From: an uncultured Desulfobulbaceae bacterium
Lineage (GTDB): Bacteria; Desulfobacterota; Dissulfuribacteria; Dissulfuribacterales; DYLC01
Length of the DNA stretch: 64,000 nucleotides
Assembly (NCBI GenBank): GCA_964427245.1
Contig: CAYRSX010000038.1
Location: 2,495 to 66,494, forward strand
Reading direction: 5' to 3'
Part shown: piece after piece, positions 2-37,782 of the stretch
Layout of the letters: each line of letters begins with the position of its first letter
How positions within the stretch are numbered: position 1 is the first letter of the stretch
Made by a program: the position numbers and the translations under genes
The notes under the pieces: generated by a model
What the model saw: the letters and a program-made list of their open reading frames with translations, nothing else
The model's database searches: none
What the model was told of the DNA's origin: nothing

Positions 2-724
2 GTACCTGCCTGTGAATATAACCCCTTTGAGGCGGTCAAGACCAATATACTTGGGGCTACGAACGTTATAGACGCTGCTTTGACCAACGAGGTTTCGCGC
101 GTGGTGGCCTTGAGTACGGACAAGGCCGTAAATCCGGTAAATCTCTATGGGGCGACCAAGCTCTGCTCCGACAAGCTTTTTATTCACTCCAATGTGTACA
201 GCGGAGACCGTTCAACTCGGTTTGCCTGCGTGCGTTACGGAAATGTCTTGGGTTCACGAGGAAGCGTCATTCCACTCTTTTTAAAACAGAGGGAAAACGG
301 TGTCGTAACCCTGACGGATGAGAGAATGACTCGCTTCTGGATCACCACGGAGGATGCGGTTAAATTAGTGGAATCCGCCTTGTATCTCATGCAGGGTGGA
401 GAGATATTCGTGCCGCACATTCCAAGCATGCGCATTTTGGACCTGGCGGACACCATTGCCCCGGGTTGTGAAAAGAAAGTCATAGGCATTCGGCCCGGTG
501 AAAAGTTGCATGAGGTCCTGATCAACGAAGATGAGGGCCGCTATACCATTCGATATCAGGGTATCTACATCGTTCAGCCGGACGTTTCTGCCTGGAAAAA
601 GGGCAAGTATGCCGCAGGAGAACCTGTGGAGGCACATTTTGCCTATGCCAGTAATACCAACGACTGGTGGTTGACGCCGGAGGAATTAAAGACCATGCTG
701 ATGCGGCAGGGTGTAACTTTATGA
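2..724 (+). CDS. pseB: UDP-N-acetylglucosamine 4,6-dehydratase (inverting), PseB/FlaA1/CapD type; 5' end lies outside the window
   Basis: The frame is open from nt 2. The translation ...LSTDKAVNPVNLYGATKLCSDKLF...VRYGNVLGSRGSVIPLF... shows the SDR YxxxK region and C-terminal half typical of PseB-like dehydratases. The stop overlaps the next start (ATGA at 721-724). Confidence 0.8.
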   Translation, partial: VPACEYNPFEAVKTNILGATNVIDAALTNEVSRVVALSTDKAVNPVNLYGATKLCSDKLFIHSNVYSGDRSTRFACVRYGNVLGSRGSVIPLFLKQRENGVVTLTDERMTRFWITTEDAVKLVESALYLMQGGEIFVPHIPSMRILDLADTIAPGCEKKVIGIRPGEKLHEVLINEDEGRYTIRYQGIYIVQPDVSAWKKGKYAAGEPVEAHFAYASNTNDWWLTPEELKTMLMRQGVTL

Positions 725-1851
725 TTCCATACGGCAGACAATTCATAGATGCAAGGGATATTCAAGCGGTAAACGAGGTGCTTGAGTCCGACTGGATCAC
801 CACCGGACCCAAGGTCAGTGAGTTTGAGGCTGCTGTGGCTTCTTTTGCACAAATGAGTCATGCTGTGGCAGTGAGCAGTGGAACTGCGGCCCTGCATACC
901 GGAATGCACTGTCTGGGCATAAGTCCGCAAGACGAGGTGATAGTGCCGGCCATGACCTTCGTCGCCACAGCGAATGCCGTGGTCTTTTGTGGCGGAAGGC
1001 CTGTCTTTGCAGATGTGAATGCTGATACCTTGCTCATTGATGTGCCAAGTGTCAAGCGTGCTATCACGCCTCGTACACGGGTCATAGTGGCTGTGGACTA
1101 TGCAGGCCAACCATGCAATTATGAAGAATTGCGTGAAATCGCTCAGACGCACGGCCTGTTTCTGGTGGCCGATGCCTGCCACAGCCTGGGTGCGGTCATA
1201 AATGGCAAGATGGCCGCTTCTCTTGCTGATATAACGGTATTTAGTTTTCATCCTGTTAAGCATATCACTACGGGTGAGGGTGGCATGGTGCTGACGAACC
1301 GAAAGGATTGGGCGCAAAAGGCCAGGAGATTTCGCAACCACGGCATAGAAACGGATTCCAGACAGCGCGAGGAACAGGGCACCTGGGCCTATGACATGCT
1401 GGAACTGGGTTATAATTATCGCATTACGGATATGCAATGCGCCTTGGGCATCAGCCAACTTCGAAAACTGCCCCAGTGGCTGCAAGTCCGGCGAAGGCTT
1501 GCCGCCTGTTACAGCGGGCTGCTTGCTGATATCAAGTGGCTCACCCCGTTAAAACAAAAAGAAAGCGGCCATGCCTGGCACCTGTATGTGATAAAATTGA
1601 AGGAAGCCGGTGTGCGCAGGCCATTATTTTCATTTTTGCGACAAAAAGGTATTGGAGTAAACGTACACTATCTGCCTGTGTATTTGCATTCGTTTTATAG
1701 GGATCGTTTTGGAACAGGGCCGGGGCTCTGTCCTGTGGCCGAGAGTGCCTATGAGCATCTTCTGACGCTGCCACTTCATCAGGGCATGACCGAGGCCGAT
1801 GTGAAGTATGTGGTTCAATGTCTGAAGGAGTTTGAATCGCAAGGTCTTTAG
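721..1851 (+). CDS. pseC: DegT/DnrJ/EryC1 family PLP aminotransferase, PseC-like (UDP-4-amino-4,6-dideoxy sugar transaminase)
   Basis: MIPYGRQFIDARDIQAVNEVLESDWITTGPKV... is a typical PseC N-terminus, and FSFHPVKHITTGEGG is the PLP-lysine region. I chose the ATG at 721 (ATGA overlap with pseB) over the ORF-track start at 667. Confidence 0.75.
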   Translation: MIPYGRQFIDARDIQAVNEVLESDWITTGPKVSEFEAAVASFAQMSHAVAVSSGTAALHTGMHCLGISPQDEVIVPAMTFVATANAVVFCGGRPVFADVNADTLLIDVPSVKRAITPRTRVIVAVDYAGQPCNYEELREIAQTHGLFLVADACHSLGAVINGKMAASLADITVFSFHPVKHITTGEGGMVLTNRKDWAQKARRFRNHGIETDSRQREEQGTWAYDMLELGYNYRITDMQCALGISQLRKLPQWLQVRRRLAACYSGLLADIKWLTPLKQKESGHAWHLYVIKLKEAGVRRPLFSFLRQKGIGVNVHYLPVYLHSFYRDRFGTGPGLCPVAESAYEHLLTLPLHQGMTEADVKYVVQCLKEFESQGL

Positions 1852-3025: not shown

Positions 3026-3123
3026 TGGCGGAAGCGCATGGGAATCGAACCCACCCACGAAGCTCTTCACCTCGTGCACTGGATTTGAAGTCCAGGAGGG
3101 CCACCAGTGCCCTTTCCGCTTCC
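3026..3123 (-). tRNA. selC: tRNA-Sec (anticodon UCA)
   Basis: The reverse complement reads GGAAGCGGAAAGGGCACTGGTGGCCCTCCTGGACTTCAAATCCAGTGCACGAGGTGAAGAGCTTCGTGGGTGGGTTCGATTCCCATGCGCTTCCGCCA. It has the anticodon loop CTTCAAA (UCA), a long variable arm (CACGAGG/CTTCGTG), a TTCGATT T-loop, encoded CCA and a GGAAG... 5' end like E. coli selC. Length is 98 nt. Confidence 0.9.
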
Positions 3124-8695: not shown

Positions 8696-11275
8696 TTGCA
8701 CCACAGCCTCCTCTTCATAACAGCCATTTTCTTCTTCTGCCTCGGCATTGCAGGAGCCTCTTGTAGTTTAGAGCCTGTTAGCCATGCAATGCAAAATGAT
8801 GCAATTCGGCTGGTCATCGGCTGGTCTTGTGTCTTTTTGGGTGGTTGCGGGCTTTTGGGACAGTTGGTTTCGTTTATTCGGCAAAAAAGGCAGGCAAATG
8901 CAGAGACAAGACCTGTCGGCCTTTCAACATACTTGCTGTCCTGCCTTTTTGCGGCCGTTTTGTTTCTGGGACTAGGCGGTGTGCATGTTTGTTTCTATGA
9001 AAAGAGCTATGCTGACAGGGCGGGGCCCCTTTGGGATATAGCGCAAAAAAAAGAGGAAGTGGTGCTTATAGGACAGGTGATTCGTATGCCTGTTTCCACT
9101 GAAAGAGGTGACACTCGTTTGCGTATAGGCCTGTTGGCAAGGGCCGAACCACAAGGCCTGTCACTCATCAAAGGCGATATCTTGCTTCATGTGAAGAGCC
9201 TGGATTATCGGGATGTGCTGCCGGGTGATGTCTTGCGTTTTGCGGTCAGATTACGGGAACCCAAGGGATTTGCTGTGCCCGGGGCCTTTGATCACAGGCT
9301 CTGGCTGGAGATTCAGGGCATTCATGCAACGGCAATTGTGGTCAGTCCTCTGAAGATGGCTGTGACCGGTCATTTTCACTCTTCTCCTGTGCTGCCTTAT
9401 TGGCGGTATGTGTTGGAGACGAAGCGAATGCGACTTGTTGAGGCGTTGTGCGAGGCATTCCCTTCAAATGACACGCGTAGCCTTGCAGTGGGTTTGCTGC
9501 TGGGCGAGCAGGCAGGCATGGACAAAGATGTCCGGGAGCTTGCTCAAGTGACCGGTATAAGCCATCTGCTGGCAGTTTCGGGCACCAATATGACTCTGGT
9601 TGCCCTTATGGCCGGGTTGCTCGTGTATCGTCTCCTCATTCACTGGCAGTTCATTGCACTGAGATTTTCCGTGCGGCGGATAGCGGCAGGCATGGCTGTG
9701 ATGGCCGTTCTTATATATGCTGGAATGGCGGGTTTTTCTGTTTCCGCCATACGGGCTGTACTTATGACCGTCGCCATCTCGGCCGCTTTTGTCCTGAACC
9801 GGCCTCAAAGCCTTTTGAACGCACTGGCCCTGGCTGGTCTGGTCCTGTTGCTCTTTGAGCCGTTACAGCTTTTCAGTCCCTCATTTCAGCTGTCTTTTGC
9901 GGCTGTCTTCTTTTTGTGCGGTCTGGCTGCGCCTTTTTTACAACGATTTGAAAAAACAACCACCCCGCCCTTCGGGCACCCCTCCACAGGAGGGGACACC
10001 ACTTCCGGCATAAATAGGCCGCCATTGATTACATTGAAATACCGCATCATATCCCTGTTTGTAGCGGGTTTTGTGGCCCTTTTGGCCACTGCTCCCTTTA
10101 TCGCATGGCATTTTCAAAGGTTTTCTTTGCTGGCTCTGCCTGTAAATCTCGTAGCGGTGCCCCTGACTGATCTCCTTTTGTTGCCGGGTCTTATGCTCGG
10201 GGCATTGTCGCTGCCTTTTTCTTCTGCAGTGGCCTTTGGTATCTGGCGAGTCATGGATGTAATTCTCGGTCTGTCTTTGAATGGTTTGCAGTGGATAAGC
10301 GGTTGGGAGTATGCTTCGTTTTGGTGCATCAAGCCATGGATGTGGCAGGTGGTCGTCTCATGTATGGTACTTCTGGCCCTAGTGTTGGCTGTTAGGCATA
10401 GGGGTCGGGAGAAGAGATGGCTTTGCATCTCATTGGTTTTGGCGATGACATGTGTGGGAGGGTTTTGGTATCGGACCTGGACGATATCCAACAGCAGTAC
10501 TCTTCGACTTCATGTTTTAGACGTAGGGCAGGGTTTGGCACAGGTAGTGGAAGGCCCTAGGGGTTTTTTGATGGTCATGGATGCAGGAGGTCTTGGCAAT
10601 ACGGATTTCGATACCGGAGAAAGGCTGGTGGCCCCTTTCATAAGACATCTCGGTTATAATACCATCGATCTCCTGGTGATGAGTCATCCTGAACAGGATC
10701 ACATGGGAGGTATTCCATATCTGCTCAGGCATTTTCGAGTCAAACGGTTTTGGAGCAATGGCGCTTCAGGAGAGGGGGAGACATGGAATCTACTTCAGAC
10801 AGCCCTTACGAAGACGGCCTGTACTGTTGAGACGCCTTCTGATGGCGATGTGTTGAATGTACAGGGTCTTTCCGTTCGGCCCCTCATCCTTCATGGATGC
10901 CACGGTCTGGAGACGCGAAACGCCCGTTCACTGGTGTTGCTATTGGAGTATCGAGGTCGCTCGCTCCTTCTTACAGGTGACATGGATGCCCAACGAGCGG
11001 CCTGTATTCTAAAAGAACTTTCTCATACGGATATCCTGGTAGCGCCTCATCATGGCAGCAAGGGCTCCAATTCCCCCGCGTTCGTTCAGGCGGCCAGTCC
11101 GGGCGTGGTGATATTTTCCGCTGGCAGGGACAATCCCTTTCATCTGCCCAACAAGTCGGTGATTCAGCGCTATATGGAGGTAGGCAGCAGGATTTTGACC
11201 ACAGAACGAAATGGAACCATCACGGTTGAGGTGAGTGCATCAAGTGCATTGAGTATAAGAAATAGCTTGCCGTGA
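8696..11275 (+). CDS. comEC: DNA internalization-related competence protein ComEC/Rec2 (polytopic membrane domain plus C-terminal metallo-beta-lactamase domain)
   Basis: Multiple TM segments. The competence-domain motif LAVSGTNMTLV is present, as is the C-terminal MBL motif LVMSHPEQDHMGG ... APHHGS. The start is TTG at 8696 (ORF track) and is uncertain. Confidence 0.8.
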   Translation: MHHSLLFITAIFFFCLGIAGASCSLEPVSHAMQNDAIRLVIGWSCVFLGGCGLLGQLVSFIRQKRQANAETRPVGLSTYLLSCLFAAVLFLGLGGVHVCFYEKSYADRAGPLWDIAQKKEEVVLIGQVIRMPVSTERGDTRLRIGLLARAEPQGLSLIKGDILLHVKSLDYRDVLPGDVLRFAVRLREPKGFAVPGAFDHRLWLEIQGIHATAIVVSPLKMAVTGHFHSSPVLPYWRYVLETKRMRLVEALCEAFPSNDTRSLAVGLLLGEQAGMDKDVRELAQVTGISHLLAVSGTNMTLVALMAGLLVYRLLIHWQFIALRFSVRRIAAGMAVMAVLIYAGMAGFSVSAIRAVLMTVAISAAFVLNRPQSLLNALALAGLVLLLFEPLQLFSPSFQLSFAAVFFLCGLAAPFLQRFEKTTTPPFGHPSTGGDTTSGINRPPLITLKYRIISLFVAGFVALLATAPFIAWHFQRFSLLALPVNLVAVPLTDLLLLPGLMLGALSLPFSSAVAFGIWRVMDVILGLSLNGLQWISGWEYASFWCIKPWMWQVVVSCMVLLALVLAVRHRGREKRWLCISLVLAMTCVGGFWYRTWTISNSSTLRLHVLDVGQGLAQVVEGPRGFLMVMDAGGLGNTDFDTGERLVAPFIRHLGYNTIDLLVMSHPEQDHMGGIPYLLRHFRVKRFWSNGASGEGETWNLLQTALTKTACTVETPSDGDVLNVQGLSVRPLILHGCHGLETRNARSLVLLLEYRGRSLLLTGDMDAQRAACILKELSHTDILVAPHHGSKGSNSPAFVQAASPGVVIFSAGRDNPFHLPNKSVIQRYMEVGSRILTTERNGTITVEVSASSALSIRNSLP
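9956..10005. repeat. copy of the GC-rich double-hairpin repeat module (M5) embedded in-frame in comEC
   Basis: The reverse complement GAAGTGGTGTCCCCTCCTGTGGAGGGGTGCCCGAAGGGCGGGGTGGTTGT matches 37605..37655 apart from one substitution and a 1-nt indel. Confidence 0.85.
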
Positions 11276-11336
11276 TGTAGTTTCAGCCTTTATTATGAGA
11301 AGGGAAAACAAACCCGTAGGTATCTGAAATAATAGG

Positions 11337-11353
11337 ACAGGCGTCTCGCCTGT
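11337..11353. repeat. repeat module M2 hairpin (ACAGGCG-TCT-CGCCTGT)
   Basis: This palindromic 17-mer lies between comEC and gmhA. The same module recurs at about 21220-21235, 37556-37575 and 45156-45173. Confidence 0.7.
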
Positions 11354-11376
11354 TCTACTGGTATGAAAGGGACAAC

Positions 11377-21057: not shown

Positions 21058-21146
21058 TCGCCGCAGGGGTGGGCGGACGTATAGCCTGTCCACCTCGAGT
21101 TATGTAGAGATGGGTTCAGAACCCGCTCGGACCATTCCAGCGGCAA

Positions 21147-21339
21147 AAGGATTTCTCGGTCGCTGTGCTTCATTCGAAATGACACTTGTTGTTGTGTGAC
21201 AGGCGAGATGTTTGCGACAGGTGAGACGCCTGTCTTACGGGTAGTGTCTTTGTCATTTTCGAGCGAAGTGGTTGTAATTGCTTACGAACTGGCTGTCATT
21301 TCGAGCGAAGCGAGAAATCTTATAAAAGCGAGGAATCTT
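21147..21339. repeat. mosaic repeat cluster (modules M1inv-M2-M2-M1-M1), colinear with 37486..37746
   Basis: AAGGATTTCTCGGTCGCTGTGCTTCATTCGAAATGACA ... GACAGGTGAGACGCCTGTCTTAC ... TGTCATTTTCGAGCGAAGTGGTTGTAATTGC ... TGTCATTTCGAGCGAAGCGAGAAATCTT. By eye it is near-identical, module for module, to the cluster after pyrC. Confidence 0.85.
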
Positions 21340-21341
21340 TT

Positions 21342-21767
21342 ATGACGATGCAGAACGATTGGCAGCGTTGCGTTGCGTTTCATGGCCATGCCTGTCCTGG
21401 TTTGGCCATAGGCTTTCGAGCGTGTGAGGCACTGAAACAGGTCATGGACCTGCATTTTTCCAAGGATGAGGAACTGGTTTGCATAACGGAAAATGATGCC
21501 TGCGGCGTGGATGCGGTACAGGTATTGACCGGCTGCATCTTTGGTAAGGGTAATCTCATTTATCGGGATGTGGGCAAGATGGCATTTACCTTTTTTGAGC
21601 GACATGCAGGTAAGGGTGTGCGAGTGGTGTTCAAGGGAGTCATGCCCCAGGGCATGGATCGCAATAAATGGCAGGAATATATATTGACAGCGCCGGTTTT
21701 CGAGTTGTTTCAAGTAACTGAGCCCAGATGTGAGTTGCCGCCCAAGGCCCGTATGAGGAAGATGTAG
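21342..21767 (+). CDS. FmdE-family domain protein (short form without the C-terminal zinc ribbon)
   Basis: WQRCVAFHGHACPGLAIGFRACEA is the FmdE-family N-terminal motif. The protein ends at 141 aa with no CxxC pairs. Confidence 0.65.
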   Translation: MTMQNDWQRCVAFHGHACPGLAIGFRACEALKQVMDLHFSKDEELVCITENDACGVDAVQVLTGCIFGKGNLIYRDVGKMAFTFFERHAGKGVRVVFKGVMPQGMDRNKWQEYILTAPVFELFQVTEPRCELPPKARMRKM

Positions 21768-36175: not shown

Positions 36176-37471
36176 ATGGACTTGCTTCTTGAGAATGCTT
36201 TGCTTTTGGATCCTGCTTCCGGTCTGAATGAGATGGGCGCTGTTTGGGTTCGAAGTGGCCGTATAGAGGGCATATTTTTGGCCAGAGATGGATCACCATT
36301 GCATTTGCCTGTACAGCGCATGGATTTGAAGGGCTGTTGGCTGGTTCCCGGTTTGATAGATATGCATGTTCATTTGAGAGAGCCGGGAGAGGAATACAAG
36401 GAGACCATTGCCACCGGCACAAGGGCTGCGGCAGCAGGTGGTTTTACGGCAGTTGCAAGTATGCCCAATACAAGACCTGTGAATGATGATGTGACCGTCA
36501 CTGCATTTATAAAACATAAGGCGGAGTTGGAGGGCAGCGCTCGTGTATATCCTGTGGCCTGTATTACGAGAGGCCAGCAGGGCAAGGAGTTGACGGAGAT
36601 GGGTTTGTTATTGGAGGCCGGGGCCGTGGCCTTTTCAGATGATGGAAGGCCTGTAACCGACGCCGCCATTATGCGTGCGGCCATGGAGTATGTGCGTGGT
36701 TTTGACGCCCTTATCATCTCTCATGCCGAGGAGTTGAATCTTGTGGGAAATGGTGTCATGAATGAAGGCCTGATTTCGCAGGTCTTGGGGCTTAGGGGTA
36801 TACCTTGTGTGGCCGAGGAGATAGCTGTTTTTCGCGATATAGCCCTTGCAAAATATACCGGAGCGAGGTTGCACATAGCGCATGTTAGCACAAAAGGCGC
36901 TGTGGAGTTGATTCGTAGGGCCAAAAACGAAGGGGTGCGTGTTACAGCGGAAACTGCCCCGCATTATTTTACACTTACCGAGGAGGCTGTACTGGGCTAC
37001 AATACTAATGCAAAGATGAACCCACCTCTTCGAATAGAAGAAGACAGACAGGCTGTTATAGATGGATTGAAAGATGGTACGCTGAATGTAATAGCGACAG
37101 ATCATGCGCCTCATAGTGTATTGGAAAAGGAGATCGAGTTTGACAGGGCGGCCAATGGCATCATTGGATTGGAGACAGCTGTTCCTCTTGCATTGGAATT
37201 GGTGCGGCAGCAGCATCTAACGCCTCTTCAGATGGTTGCAAGCCTTTCATTGAATCCAGCCTGTATCTTGGGTGTGCCTGGAGGAAGGCTGAAAGTGAGT
37301 GAACCTGCCGATCTATGTATCATAGATCCAAATATGCCATTTGAAATCACGCGAGATAATCTGTTTTCCAAAAGTTGGAATACGCCGTTTTTGGGTCAAC
37401 GTCTTATGGGCAGGGTTGTTTTGACTATGAAGTCAGGTCAAGTGATACATAATCTTGTAGGGGCGGAGTAG
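36176..37471 (+). CDS. pyrC: dihydroorotase (multifunctional-complex type)
   Basis: LIDMHVHLREPG, ...IATDHAPH..., about 430 aa, directly after pyrB. Confidence 0.9.
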   Translation: MDLLLENALLLDPASGLNEMGAVWVRSGRIEGIFLARDGSPLHLPVQRMDLKGCWLVPGLIDMHVHLREPGEEYKETIATGTRAAAAGGFTAVASMPNTRPVNDDVTVTAFIKHKAELEGSARVYPVACITRGQQGKELTEMGLLLEAGAVAFSDDGRPVTDAAIMRAAMEYVRGFDALIISHAEELNLVGNGVMNEGLISQVLGLRGIPCVAEEIAVFRDIALAKYTGARLHIAHVSTKGAVELIRRAKNEGVRVTAETAPHYFTLTEEAVLGYNTNAKMNPPLRIEEDRQAVIDGLKDGTLNVIATDHAPHSVLEKEIEFDRAANGIIGLETAVPLALELVRQQHLTPLQMVASLSLNPACILGVPGGRLKVSEPADLCIIDPNMPFEITRDNLFSKSWNTPFLGQRLMGRVVLTMKSGQVIHNLVGAE

Positions 37472-37485
37472 CACTTACTCCTATC

Positions 37486-37746
37486 AAGGATTTCTCAGTC
37501 GCTGTGCTTCATTCGAAATGACACTGGTTGTTGTGTGCTACAGGCGAGACGGTTGTGACAGGCGTCTCGCCTGTCTTACGAGTGGTGCCTTTGTCATTTC
37601 GAGCGAAGTGGTGTCCCCTCCTGTGGGGAGGGTGCCCGAAGGGCGGGGTGGTTGTAATTGCTCACGAACTGGCTGTCATTTCGAGTGAAGCGGTTGTGAT
37701 TTCGAGCAAACCCTCTGTCATCCCGAGCGTAGCGAGGAATCTTAAG
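37486..37746. repeat. largest mosaic repeat cluster (M1inv-M2-M2-M1[M5 nested]-M1-M1-M1)
   Basis: Colinear with 21147..21339 but with an extra 40-nt module (37612..37651) and additional M1 variants (GTGATTTCGAGCAAACCCTC, TGTCATCCCGAGCGTAGCGAGGAATCTTAAGG). Confidence 0.9.
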
Positions 37747-37782
37747 GCGCTACAGATGAATTACGACAGGGTATGAAACACT

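What the first reader, a model, noticed from the sequence alone, without database searches (positions are those of the whole stretch)
9956..10005. An intergenic repeat module is embedded in-frame inside comEC (39 nt here, 40 nt in its intergenic copy)
The comEC segment ACAA-CCACCCCGCCCTTCGGGCACCCCTCCACAGGAGGGGACA-CCACTTC is the reverse complement of 37605..37655 in the pyrC-downstream repeat cluster. The two differ only by GGAGGG versus AGGGG.

The intergenic copy of the core module is 40 nt; the coding copy is 39 nt. The coding copy therefore adds exactly 13 codons (about ...TPPFGHPSTGGDT...) without breaking the frame. It lies in a loop between hydrophobic segments of ComEC.

This looks like a miniature repeat insertion into a gene that was tolerated, or trimmed, to preserve the reading frame.
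Basis: seen in the sequence. Interest (0 to 1): 0.6.

Follow-up and report, generated by a model that had tools for sequence, protein, structure and literature searches.

The report
Hairpin repeat inserted in-frame in comEC
A 39-base copy of a small two-hairpin DNA repeat, one that occurs almost unchanged in bacteria of many phyla, has landed inside the DNA-uptake gene comEC, where it adds 13 amino acids to a floppy loop without breaking the gene; this kind of event is known, but this repeat family appears to be undescribed.

Summary
Window 9956-10005, inside a full-length comEC, is the reverse complement of 37605-37655 apart from a 1-nt indel.

- **Orthologues.** Five close ComEC orthologues (70-85% identity, syntenic) and ten distant ones all lack exactly these 13 residues (39 nt). 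It is therefore a lineage-specific insertion.
- **Placement.** It sits in a disordered loop (AlphaFold pLDDT <50). comEC is still under purifying selection (dN/dS about 0.2).
- **Second empty site.** A paralogous repeat cluster at about 21.2 kb lacks the 40-nt intergenic copy.
- **Not trimmed.** The coding copy has the canonical 36-nt core. The intergenic copy is the aberrant one.
- **The module.** CCACCCC, a small hairpin, then CCCCTCC-loop-GGAGGGG. Its exact 22-mer occurs in at least 120 genome stretches from about 15 phyla. The inner hairpin shows compensatory changes, and the three C/G blocks co-vary as in BoxC/PIT intrastrand-triplex repeats.
- **Coding tolerance.** The module is mostly stop-free in all six frames. 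It lies in frame in UvrA, HsdM and other genes elsewhere.
- **DUF559 link.** In 19 of 120 loci, inverted copies flank a DUF559 (Vsr-like) nuclease gene, often in frame within hsdR or hsdS.

No DUF559 gene lies in the window.

The parts
8696..11275 (+). comEC (ComEC/Rec2 DNA-uptake channel), 859-aa ORF, intact
   Evidence: Pfam DUF4131 (aa 42-217), Competence (267-566) and Lactamase_B (623-804). Orthologues found. dN/dS 0.18-0.26.
9959..9997 (+). The 39-nt insertion, codons 422-434 (TTPPFGHPSTGGD). Placement is ambiguous by about 3-6 nt because ACC / ACAACC recurs at both edges.
   Evidence: Absent from all 15 aligned ComECs and from the DNA of L121-L124. Lies in coil 423-442, with pLDDT <50 at 424-440.
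9960..9966 (+). Block 1, CCACCCC. On the other strand it reads GGGGTGG, the mirror of the G stem.
   Evidence: Invariant in 138 copies by construction of the search. Co-varies with the C stem in variant copies.
9967..9977 (+). Inner hairpin GCCC-TTC-GGGC. On the other strand it has a GAA loop closed by C:G.
   Evidence: Folds on both strands. 18 distinct stem/loop versions keep a perfect 4-bp stem.
9979..9995 (+). Outer hairpin CCCCTCC-ACA-GGAGGGG (7 bp)
   Evidence: Loop length varies from 2 to about 40 nt elsewhere, and stem extensions co-vary.
9956..10005 (+). Full stretch shared with the intergenic copy: core plus 4 nt (ACAA) on the left and 10 nt (ACACCACTTC) on the right
   Evidence: I4, I7. 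In relatives the right flank reads ACCGATTCC, not ACCACTTCC.
37613..37652 (-). Intergenic copy of the module. A 40-nt insertion nested in a cluster of other hairpin repeats. Its outer stem is degraded (CCCTCCCC).
   Evidence: absent from the colinear cluster at 21147-21339. Folding.
21262..21282 (+). Paralogous empty site: ...GAGCGAAGTGGT|TGTAATTGC...
   Evidence: Alignment A2 of 21130-21345 with 37470-37765.

Best explanation
The comEC segment is a solo, non-autonomous copy of a small DNA repeat that inserted at the DNA level after this lineage split from its nearest sequenced relatives.

The repeat is a roughly 36-nt module: CCACCCC, a short hairpin, then CCCCTCC-loop-GGAGGGG. Its three C/G blocks have the pyrimidine / purine / mirror-purine layout of BoxC/PIT 'potential intrastrand triplex' repeats.

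The module persists in comEC for four reasons:
- the net gain is 3n (39 nt);
- the module has no stop codon in the reading frame used, and usually none in any of the six frames;
- it encodes a Pro/Gly-rich peptide;
- it landed in a loop that is disordered and variable in length.

Shown: the insertion, its exact size, its placement, the family's cross-phylum spread, the structural covariation, and the recurrent in-frame residence in other genes.

Inferred, about 60%: the copy was templated from another genomic copy together with a few flanking bases. Both window copies share ACAA on the left and ACACCACTTC on the right, whereas relatives have GA where comEC now has AC.

Inferred, about 40-50%: mobility of the family depends on the DUF559 (Vsr-like, PD-(D/E)XK) nuclease whose gene is flanked by inverted copies of this module in other genomes. 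That nuclease would act in trans on solo copies, as RAYT does on REP. No effect on ComEC function is expected.
For: - **Insertion.** 13 aa / 39 nt are absent in 5 close and 10 distant ComECs. Identity to the window falls stepwise (85, 79, 79, 78, 71%), so one insertion is more parsimonious than repeated precise deletions.
- **Second filled/empty pair.** The same window holds one.
- **Not chance.**
- **Tolerance.** Coil with pLDDT <50. P0021 has an unrelated length change in the same loop. dN/dS about 0.2.
- **Family.** At least 120 stretches hold the exact 22-mer, with unrelated flanks, from about 15 phylum-level groups.
- **Structure.** 30 of 81 distinct inner segments keep a stem of 4 bp or more, against 2.2 in shuffles, with stems such as GCCC/GGGC, GGCC/GGCC, CCGC/GCGG, GGTC/GACC and GGTT/AACC. 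DNA folding z-scores are -2.9 to -3.8 on both strands.
- **Three-block covariation.** CCCCCCC goes with CCCCCCC in 16 of 27 copies and CCGCCCC with CCCCGCC in 12 of 32. CCTCCCC keeps CCCCTCC in 31 of 32 (chi-square p = 5e-13, not corrected for relatedness). There are also triple changes such as CTCCTCC/GGAGGAG/GAGGTGG.
- **Coding compatibility.** 111 of 209 modules are stop-free in six frames and 57 in five.
- **In frame elsewhere.** UvrA, HsdM (two different sites in two 82%-identical proteins), a Cas3-like helicase, BatD, and a murC-murB join.
- **DUF559 link.** 20 DUF559 domains in 19 of 120 loci, bracketed by inverted modules with the CCACCCC ends facing the gene.
Against: - No DUF559 gene lies in the 64-kb window or in the 8 kb beyond its right end. 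The rest of the genome could not be searched, so trans-mobilisation here is unsupported.
- No nuclease activity on the module has been shown anywhere.
- The junctions allow two parses: a 5-bp ACCAC duplication, or a microhomology-mediated templated copy. Flanks in other genomes show no general target duplication.
- Net insert sizes differ between genes: +39 nt here, and roughly +30 and +33 nt in HsdM. The insertion chemistry is therefore not defined.
- The covariation counts include related copies.
- The read evidence comes from assembler contigs, which drop rare variants. An empty-site minority allele cannot be excluded.
Confidence: 0.85

Rival explanations
1. Footprint of a full cassette. 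A complete module-DUF559-module cassette (about 450-500 nt) once sat in frame in this comEC loop, as it does in hsdR and hsdS elsewhere. It was later lost, leaving one module behind.
For: Full cassettes do sit in frame inside genes. Cassette ends are the same module and encode the same peptide (TTPPFGHPSKEGE at the right end in L004).
Against: The two ends are inverted, so simple recombination between them inverts rather than deletes. Solo copies vastly outnumber cassettes (209 modules against 20 DUF559 domains). The comEC copy shares 14 flanking bases with another solo copy in the same window, which fits a solo-to-solo copy. No intermediate was found among relatives.
Confidence: 0.08
2. Domesticated or functional insert. 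The 13 residues, or the two stable hairpins they put into the comEC mRNA or DNA, are selected for a role. Possible roles are a translational pause, a regulatory site or a loop function in the channel.
For: The coding copy is a perfect match to the cross-phylum consensus, while the intergenic copy has decayed. The sense-strand RNA folds into two hairpins, one predicted with a 3-nt UUC loop and 4-bp stem (-22.4 kcal/mol over 81 nt).
Against: The RNA z-score is only -2.0. Every relative manages without the insert. The model gives a disordered coil. The same module is read in at least four different frames and on both strands in other proteins, so no particular peptide is conserved. A perfect sequence may simply mean a recent insertion (dS to the nearest relative is 0.37).
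Confidence: 0.05
3. Assembly artefact. The repeat collapsed two contigs in a metagenome assembly, so the module is not really inside comEC.
For: In Logan assemblies of four runs the comEC contigs break inside the module. The 47-nt bridging unitig has about double depth in two runs, so it is shared with another locus.
Against: Both comEC halves abut the module at exactly the orthologous junction and in the same frame. Left and right flanks have equal depth in all four runs. No contig joins the flanks without the module.
Confidence: 0.02
4. Opposite direction or chance. The 13 residues are ancestral ComEC sequence and the intergenic copies derive from it, or the resemblance is coincidental.
For: None beyond the bare similarity.
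Against: All 15 other ComECs lack the segment. The same 22-mer occurs in at least 120 unrelated contexts in about 15 phyla. Zero matches are expected by chance.
Confidence: 0.01

Closest known systems
Rickettsia palindromic elements (RPEs) and other intragenic MITE-like repeats (review PMC10969869)
   Same: Short palindromic repeats found both between genes and in frame inside unrelated genes. They add a peptide in places the protein fold tolerates.
   Different: RPEs are about 100-150 bp and confined to Rickettsia. Each RPE family encodes one conserved peptide. This module is about 36 nt, is read in several frames and on both strands, occurs in about 15 phyla, and has no sequence relation to RPEs.
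BoxC / PIT / TM_ECO intrastrand-triplex repeats (Holder et al. 2015, PMC4666352; Hoyne et al. 2000 as cited there)
   Same: G/C-rich, with three consecutive blocks: a pyrimidine block, its purine complement and a mirror purine block. The third block co-varies with the duplex. Abundant, conserved across species and associated with variable loci. No partner protein is known.
   Different: The TM_ECO pattern is CCCTCNCCC-N3-6-GGGNGAGGG-N3-GGGNGAGGG, with 9-nt blocks and a 3-nt second loop. Here the blocks are 7 nt and the second 'loop' is a structured hairpin of about 12 nt. There is no BLAST match in 5,426 E. coli genomes. TM_ECO was described as intergenic and proteobacterial.
REP/REPIN elements with their RAYT nuclease
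   Same: A short hairpin repeat with a conserved single-stranded tag. Solo and paired copies far outnumber a gene for a small nuclease that is itself flanked by inverted copies.
   Different: RAYT is an HUH/IS200-type tyrosine transposase, whereas DUF559 has a Vsr-like PD-(D/E)XK fold. REP sequences are species-specific and extragenic. This module is nearly identical across phyla and often intragenic.
DUF559 / Vsr-like endonuclease fold (Pfam PF04480; PDB 3HRL 'endonuclease-like protein')
   Same: The gene bracketed by this module in 19 loci is a clear DUF559 (E 1e-22 to 1e-34). It matches 3HRL at E 9e-14.
   Different: DUF559 has no assigned function. None is present in this window. No published link to a repeat was found.

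Membership tests
ComEC/Rec2 (host gene) | DUF4131 (OB fold), Competence channel domain and metallo-beta-lactamase domain in one protein | tested here: met
   Pfam hits at 4e-19, 4e-61 and 2e-06. The HxHxDH-type motif SHPEQDHMGG is conserved.
In-frame intragenic palindromic repeat (RPE-like behaviour) | The same element is present in several copies in the genome, intergenic as well as genic | tested here: met
   Two copies in the window. At least four loci at the organism's depth in four metagenome runs. A whole-genome count was not possible.
In-frame intragenic palindromic repeat (RPE-like behaviour) | The insert is absent from orthologues and keeps the frame | tested here: met
   39 nt / 13 aa absent from 15 ComECs.
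Rickettsia palindromic elements proper | Sequence homology to an RPE family; about 100-150 bp | tested here: not met
   The module is 36 nt and G/C-rich. Nothing reached threshold in Rfam. The hosts found are not Rickettsia.
BoxC / PIT / TM_ECO | Three blocks: a pyrimidine stem, a complementary purine stem and a mirror purine third strand | tested here: met
   CCCCTCC / GGAGGGG / GGGGTGG gives 7 of 7 allowed triads. Variants change all three blocks together.
BoxC / PIT / TM_ECO | Matches the published TM_ECO pattern (9-nt blocks, 3-nt second loop); present in E. coli | tested here: not met
   Pattern from PMC4666352. Here the blocks are 7 nt and the second loop is a hairpin of about 12 nt. No blastn match in E. 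coli genomes.
BoxC / PIT / TM_ECO | Forms an intrastrand triplex in vitro | not testable with these tools
   Needs CD, NMR or footprinting.
DUF559-cassette end repeat (undescribed; seen repeatedly in this scan) | The same module flanks a DUF559 gene as inverted repeats | tested here: met
   19 of 120 loci. The left copy is on the minus strand and the right copy on the plus strand, 0-70 nt from the domain.
DUF559-cassette end repeat (undescribed; seen repeatedly in this scan) | A DUF559 gene in the same genome as the solo copy | tested here: inconclusive
   None in the 64-kb window or in 8 kb beyond it.
Classical MITE | Terminal inverted repeats plus a target-site duplication of fixed length | tested here: inconclusive
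   A solo module is one end, not a pair of ends. ACCAC could be read as a 5-bp duplication at both window sites. Copies in other genomes show no such flank.

The most novel reading that the evidence does not exclude
The comEC insert is a non-autonomous copy of an undescribed class of bacterial mobile element. The autonomous form would be a roughly 450-500-bp unit: a DUF559 Vsr-like nuclease gene between inverted triplex-type double-hairpin ends.

The element would be built to live inside genes. Its ends are stop-free in all frames and encode flexible Pro/Gly linkers. It therefore spreads across phyla as translated, unspliced in-frame insertions, into restriction-modification genes above all but also into genes such as comEC, uvrA and hsdM. 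This would give the large DUF559 family its first substrate, and the BoxC/PIT-type repeats their missing partner protein.
Probability: 0.35. Interest if true: 0.8.

Novelty: new variant of a known kind. Interest (0 to 1): 0.55.

Why it matters
For comEC itself the finding is a clean, dated example of a gene absorbing a selfish repeat without damage. The phenomenon is known from Rickettsia.

The wider interest is the repeat.
- A 22-mer conserved letter for letter across about 15 phyla, with compensatory changes in one hairpin and three-way covariation of its C/G blocks, implies a structure-specific recognition system shared across bacteria.
- Its recurrent pairing with DUF559 points to a testable enzyme-substrate pair for a large family of unknown function.
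- It also warns annotators that peptides such as TPPFGHPS.., PPRPSGTPP.., FPSTGGVPEGRG and PSLEGCPKGG inside otherwise unrelated proteins are repeat-derived.

Tried and rejected
- **Rfam.** Nothing at gathering threshold except tRNA-Sec. The sensitive scan of the intergenic cluster gave only a 17.6-bit 'Chloroflexus-1' hit against a threshold of 181.5, which I treat as chance.
- **Literature.** Searches for the DNA and peptide strings found nothing. 'DUF559' gave only passing mentions.
- **E. coli.** blastn of the module against E. coli genomes found no match.
- **Metagenome scan.** A scan for the genome-specific right flank (CCCCTCCNNNGGAGGGGACACCAC) found no match.
- **Viral contigs.** Only 7 stretches hold the 22-mer, so phages are not an obvious vehicle.
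- **Contig walk.** Walking off the window to look for DUF559 failed on the left (protein not on record) and found no DUF559 in 8 kb on the right.
- **'Trimmed to fit the frame'.** Rejected, because the coding copy is the canonical one.
- **Fixed target-site duplication.** Rejected as a general rule, because copies in other genomes lack it.
- **HsdM DNA junctions.** They were too diverged to define exact insertion boundaries.
Full report
**1. Observation**

Window 9956-10005 reads ACAACCACCCCGCCCTTCGGGCACCCCTCCACAGGAGGGGACACCACTTC. Its reverse complement is at 37605-37655, apart from one indel: CCCCTCC against CCCTCCCC. The repeat finder reports this as two inverted pairs, offset by one base: 26 nt at 100% and 27 nt at 93%. 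The central 22-mer occurs twice in the window, and none is expected in shuffles.

The first copy lies in an 859-aa ORF (8696-11275, +) with the DUF4131, Competence and Lactamase_B domains of ComEC.

**2. Is it an insertion?**

A protein search found five close relatives at 70-85% identity, then a gap down to about 40%. In the alignment, all five and ten distant ComECs lack exactly the 13 residues TTPPFGHPSTGGD. The flanks QRFEKT and T[DT]SG align on either side.

I fetched the DNA of four relatives. They share the gene order SprA-related / comEC / SIS / cytochrome. The nucleotide alignment shows a clean 39-nt gap:
- empty: GAAAAAACA|ACCGATTCCGGC
- filled: GAAAAAACA[ACCACCCC...GGAGGGGAC]ACCACTTCCGGC

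Identity to the window falls stepwise (85, 79, 79, 78, 71%). One insertion is therefore far more parsimonious than repeated precise deletions.

The window also holds a second filled/empty pair. The repeat cluster at 21147-21339 is colinear with 37486-37746 but lacks the 40-nt module: GAAGTGGT|TGTAATTGC against GAAGTGGT[GTCCCC...GGGGTGGT]TGTAATTGC.

**3. Tolerance**

An AlphaFold model built on the 16-sequence alignment has mean pLDDT 77. It places residues 423-442 in a coil between helices 395-422 and 443-473, with pLDDT <50 at 424-440. The insert is codons 422-434.

One distant ComEC (P0021) has an unrelated length change in the same loop. comEC has no stop or frameshift, and dN/dS against the four relatives is 0.18-0.26. 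dS to the nearest relative is 0.37, which bounds the age of the insertion.

In four hot-spring or microbial-mat metagenome runs, both comEC flanks have equal depth and abut the module. No contig joins them without it, and several other loci at the same depth carry the module. These are assembler contigs, so a rare empty allele cannot be excluded.

**4. What the module is**

The record titles span about 15 phylum-level groups:
- Verrucomicrobiota
- Kiritimatiellia
- Lentisphaerae
- Chlamydiota
- Bacteroidota
- Balneola
- Kapabacteria
- Acidobacteriota
- Chloroflexota
- cyanobacteria
- Nitrospirae
- Nitrospinota
- Oscillospiraceae and Selenomonas
- alpha-, beta- and gamma-proteobacteria
- Desulfuromonadales and Desulfamplus
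- Armatimonadota
- Thermotogaceae

The 138 copies have unrelated flanks and one architecture: (a/c)CCACCCC-GCCC-TTC-GGGC-A-CCCCTCC-[loop]-GGAGGGG-A. The commonest core is 36 nt, which is what comEC has.

The inner hairpin shows compensatory change. Eighteen distinct stem/loop versions keep a perfect 4-bp stem, among them GCCC/GGGC, GGCC/GGCC, CCGC/GCGG, GGTC/GACC, GGCT/AGCC and GGTT/AACC. Longer replacements such as GTCAGGC-TTC-GCCTGCC also occur. Thirty of 81 distinct inner segments have a stem of 4 bp or more, against 2.2 in shuffles.

The outer stem is extended by co-varying pairs when the loop is longer. Both strands fold as DNA at -10 to -11.4 kcal/mol, with z-scores of -2.9 to -3.8.

**5. 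Triplex-type layout**

On the G-rich strand the module reads CCCCTCC-loop-GGAGGGG-T-[hairpin]-GGGGTGG. The third block is the mirror of the purine stem with T opposite A. This gives 7 of 7 allowed purine-motif triads.

Earlier notes of this scan pointed to BoxC/PIT. I read the source, Holder et al. 2015. It defines TM_ECO as CCCTCNCCC-N3-6-GGGNGAGGG-N3-GGGNGAGGG.

To test the three-block constraint I scanned metagenome contigs for copies whose first block is not CCACCCC. The first block and the C stem change together at mirror positions:
- CCCCCCC goes with CCCCCCC in 16 of 27 copies;
- CCGCCCC goes with CCCCGCC in 12 of 32;
- CCTCCCC, which still gives an allowed triad, keeps CCCCTCC in 31 of 32.

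The chi-square p-value is 5e-13, not corrected for relatedness. Triple changes such as CTCCTCC/GGAGGAG/GAGGTGG and CCCCTCT/AGAGGGG/GGGGAGA point the same way.

The module therefore has the PIT layout, but it does not meet the TM_ECO pattern. Its blocks are 7 nt, its second loop is a hairpin, and it has no match in E. coli genomes. The G-to-G covariation is not explained by the classical triad code. Whether a triplex actually forms is untested.

**6. Life inside genes**

Of 209 modules, 111 have no stop codon in any of the six frames and 57 have none in five. Pfam hits on both sides show real in-frame residence:
- UvrA (L113)
- HsdM (L101 and L051)
- a Cas3-like helicase (L064)
- BatD (L076)
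- an LRR protein (L060)
- between MurC and MurB as one open frame (L070)

The two HsdM proteins are 82% identical and carry the module at different sites, so each is the other's empty site. The added peptide is FPSTGGVPEGRG, a net gain of 10 and 11 residues.

Different proteins read different frames and strands: TPPFGHPS.., PPRPSGTPP.., FPSTGGVPEGRG and PSLEGCPKGG. The DNA is what is conserved, not a peptide. The comEC case is one instance of a general habit.

**7. The DUF559 link**

Clustering the ORFs near the 22-mer gave one recurrent family, Pfam DUF559, at E 1e-22 to 1e-34. It matches PDB 3HRL, an 'endonuclease-like protein'.

Twenty domains occur in 19 of 120 loci (811 kb). Each is bracketed by inverted modules with the CCACCCC/GGGGTGG ends facing the gene.

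In several loci the whole unit lies in one open frame with a host gene:
- hsdR, between HSDR_N and the helicase domain: L118, L061, L051, L104
- hsdS: L084, L104, L107
- a Type ISP enzyme: L004
- a SpoU methylase: L025

A published screen lists 'DUF559 domain-containing protein' among genes enriched at predicted programmed inversions (odds ratio 14; PMC9881135). This fits genes bracketed by inverted repeats.

I found no paper that describes the repeat or its pairing with DUF559. Several earlier agents of this scan reached the same pairing in other genomes. I treated those notes as leads and re-derived the result from my own loci.

There is no DUF559 gene in the window or in 8 kb beyond its right end.

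**8. How the comEC copy arose**

The two window copies share more than the core: ACAA on the left and ACACCACTTC on the right. The two empty sites are ACA|ACCAC|TTCG (intergenic paralogue) and ACA|ACCGA|TTCC (comEC relatives). Nine of 11 positions are identical. After the insertion comEC reads ACCAC where all relatives read ACCGA, which changes Asp to Thr.

Two readings are possible:
- The element prefers a CAACCAC-like target, and that target had arisen in comEC beforehand.
- The copy was templated from an existing genomic copy using ACAACC and TTC microhomologies, carrying two donor-flank bases with it.

I favour the second reading, because the Asp is conserved in every relative. A third locus sharing the 47-nt unit is suggested by a double-depth unitig. 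Copies in other genomes do not show a fixed target duplication.

**9. Verdict**

The event belongs to a known kind, in-frame palindromic-repeat insertion as in Rickettsia RPEs (PMC10969869). The repeat itself is an undescribed, cross-phylum variant of the triplex-type BoxC/PIT repeats, with a likely DUF559 partner. That partnership is the part worth following up.

Noticed in passing
window 3030-3123 (-): A selenocysteine tRNA gene (Rfam tRNA-Sec, 74 bits, full length).
   Followed up: no
window 21147-21339 and 37486-37746: Two colinear clusters of other hairpin modules (GTCATTTCGAGCGAAGCGAGAAATC type, GACAGGCG..CGCCTGTC type). The 40-nt module is nested inside one of them.
   Followed up: partly
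window 11333-11358: A palindrome TAGGACAGGCGTCTCGCCTGTTCTAC directly downstream of comEC. Copies lie at 37554 and 45153 (family D6).
   Followed up: no
L070:513-3071 (-), Kiritimatiellia MAG: murC and murB form one open frame. They are joined by two inverted modules around a 32-nt spacer (peptide PTPPFGHPSKEGN...PSLEGCPKGGVG). This may be a repeat-made gene fusion.
   Followed up: partly
L101:1228-2844 (-) and L051:5788-7383 (-): Two 82%-identical HsdM methylases carry the same module at two different positions inside the N6_Mtase domain. In L051 the neighbouring hsdR also holds a full DUF559 cassette.
   Followed up: yes
L058:2-694 and 698-1219 (+): The first half of an hsdS and a DUF559 ORF are in the same frame, separated by a single stop codon.
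   Followed up: no
L035:3150-3208, L036, L043, L045: Some genomes hold two modules outer-hairpin to outer-hairpin. In L035 they form a perfect 59-nt palindrome; elsewhere they surround a 25-35-nt unique spacer. This orientation is the opposite of the one around DUF559.
   Followed up: no
alignment A1, columns 441-460 (P0021): A Thermodesulfobacteriaceae ComEC has its own unrelated extra residues in the same loop. The loop is therefore generally free to vary in length.
   Followed up: no
window 9957-10003, runs X2 and X3: The 47-nt unitig spanning the module has about twice the depth of the comEC flanks. At least one more locus in the community therefore shares the module with the same CAA / ACACCACT flanks.
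   Followed up: partly
Viral contigs (L125-L131): Only 7 stretches in 2.9 million viral contigs hold the exact 22-mer.
   Followed up: no
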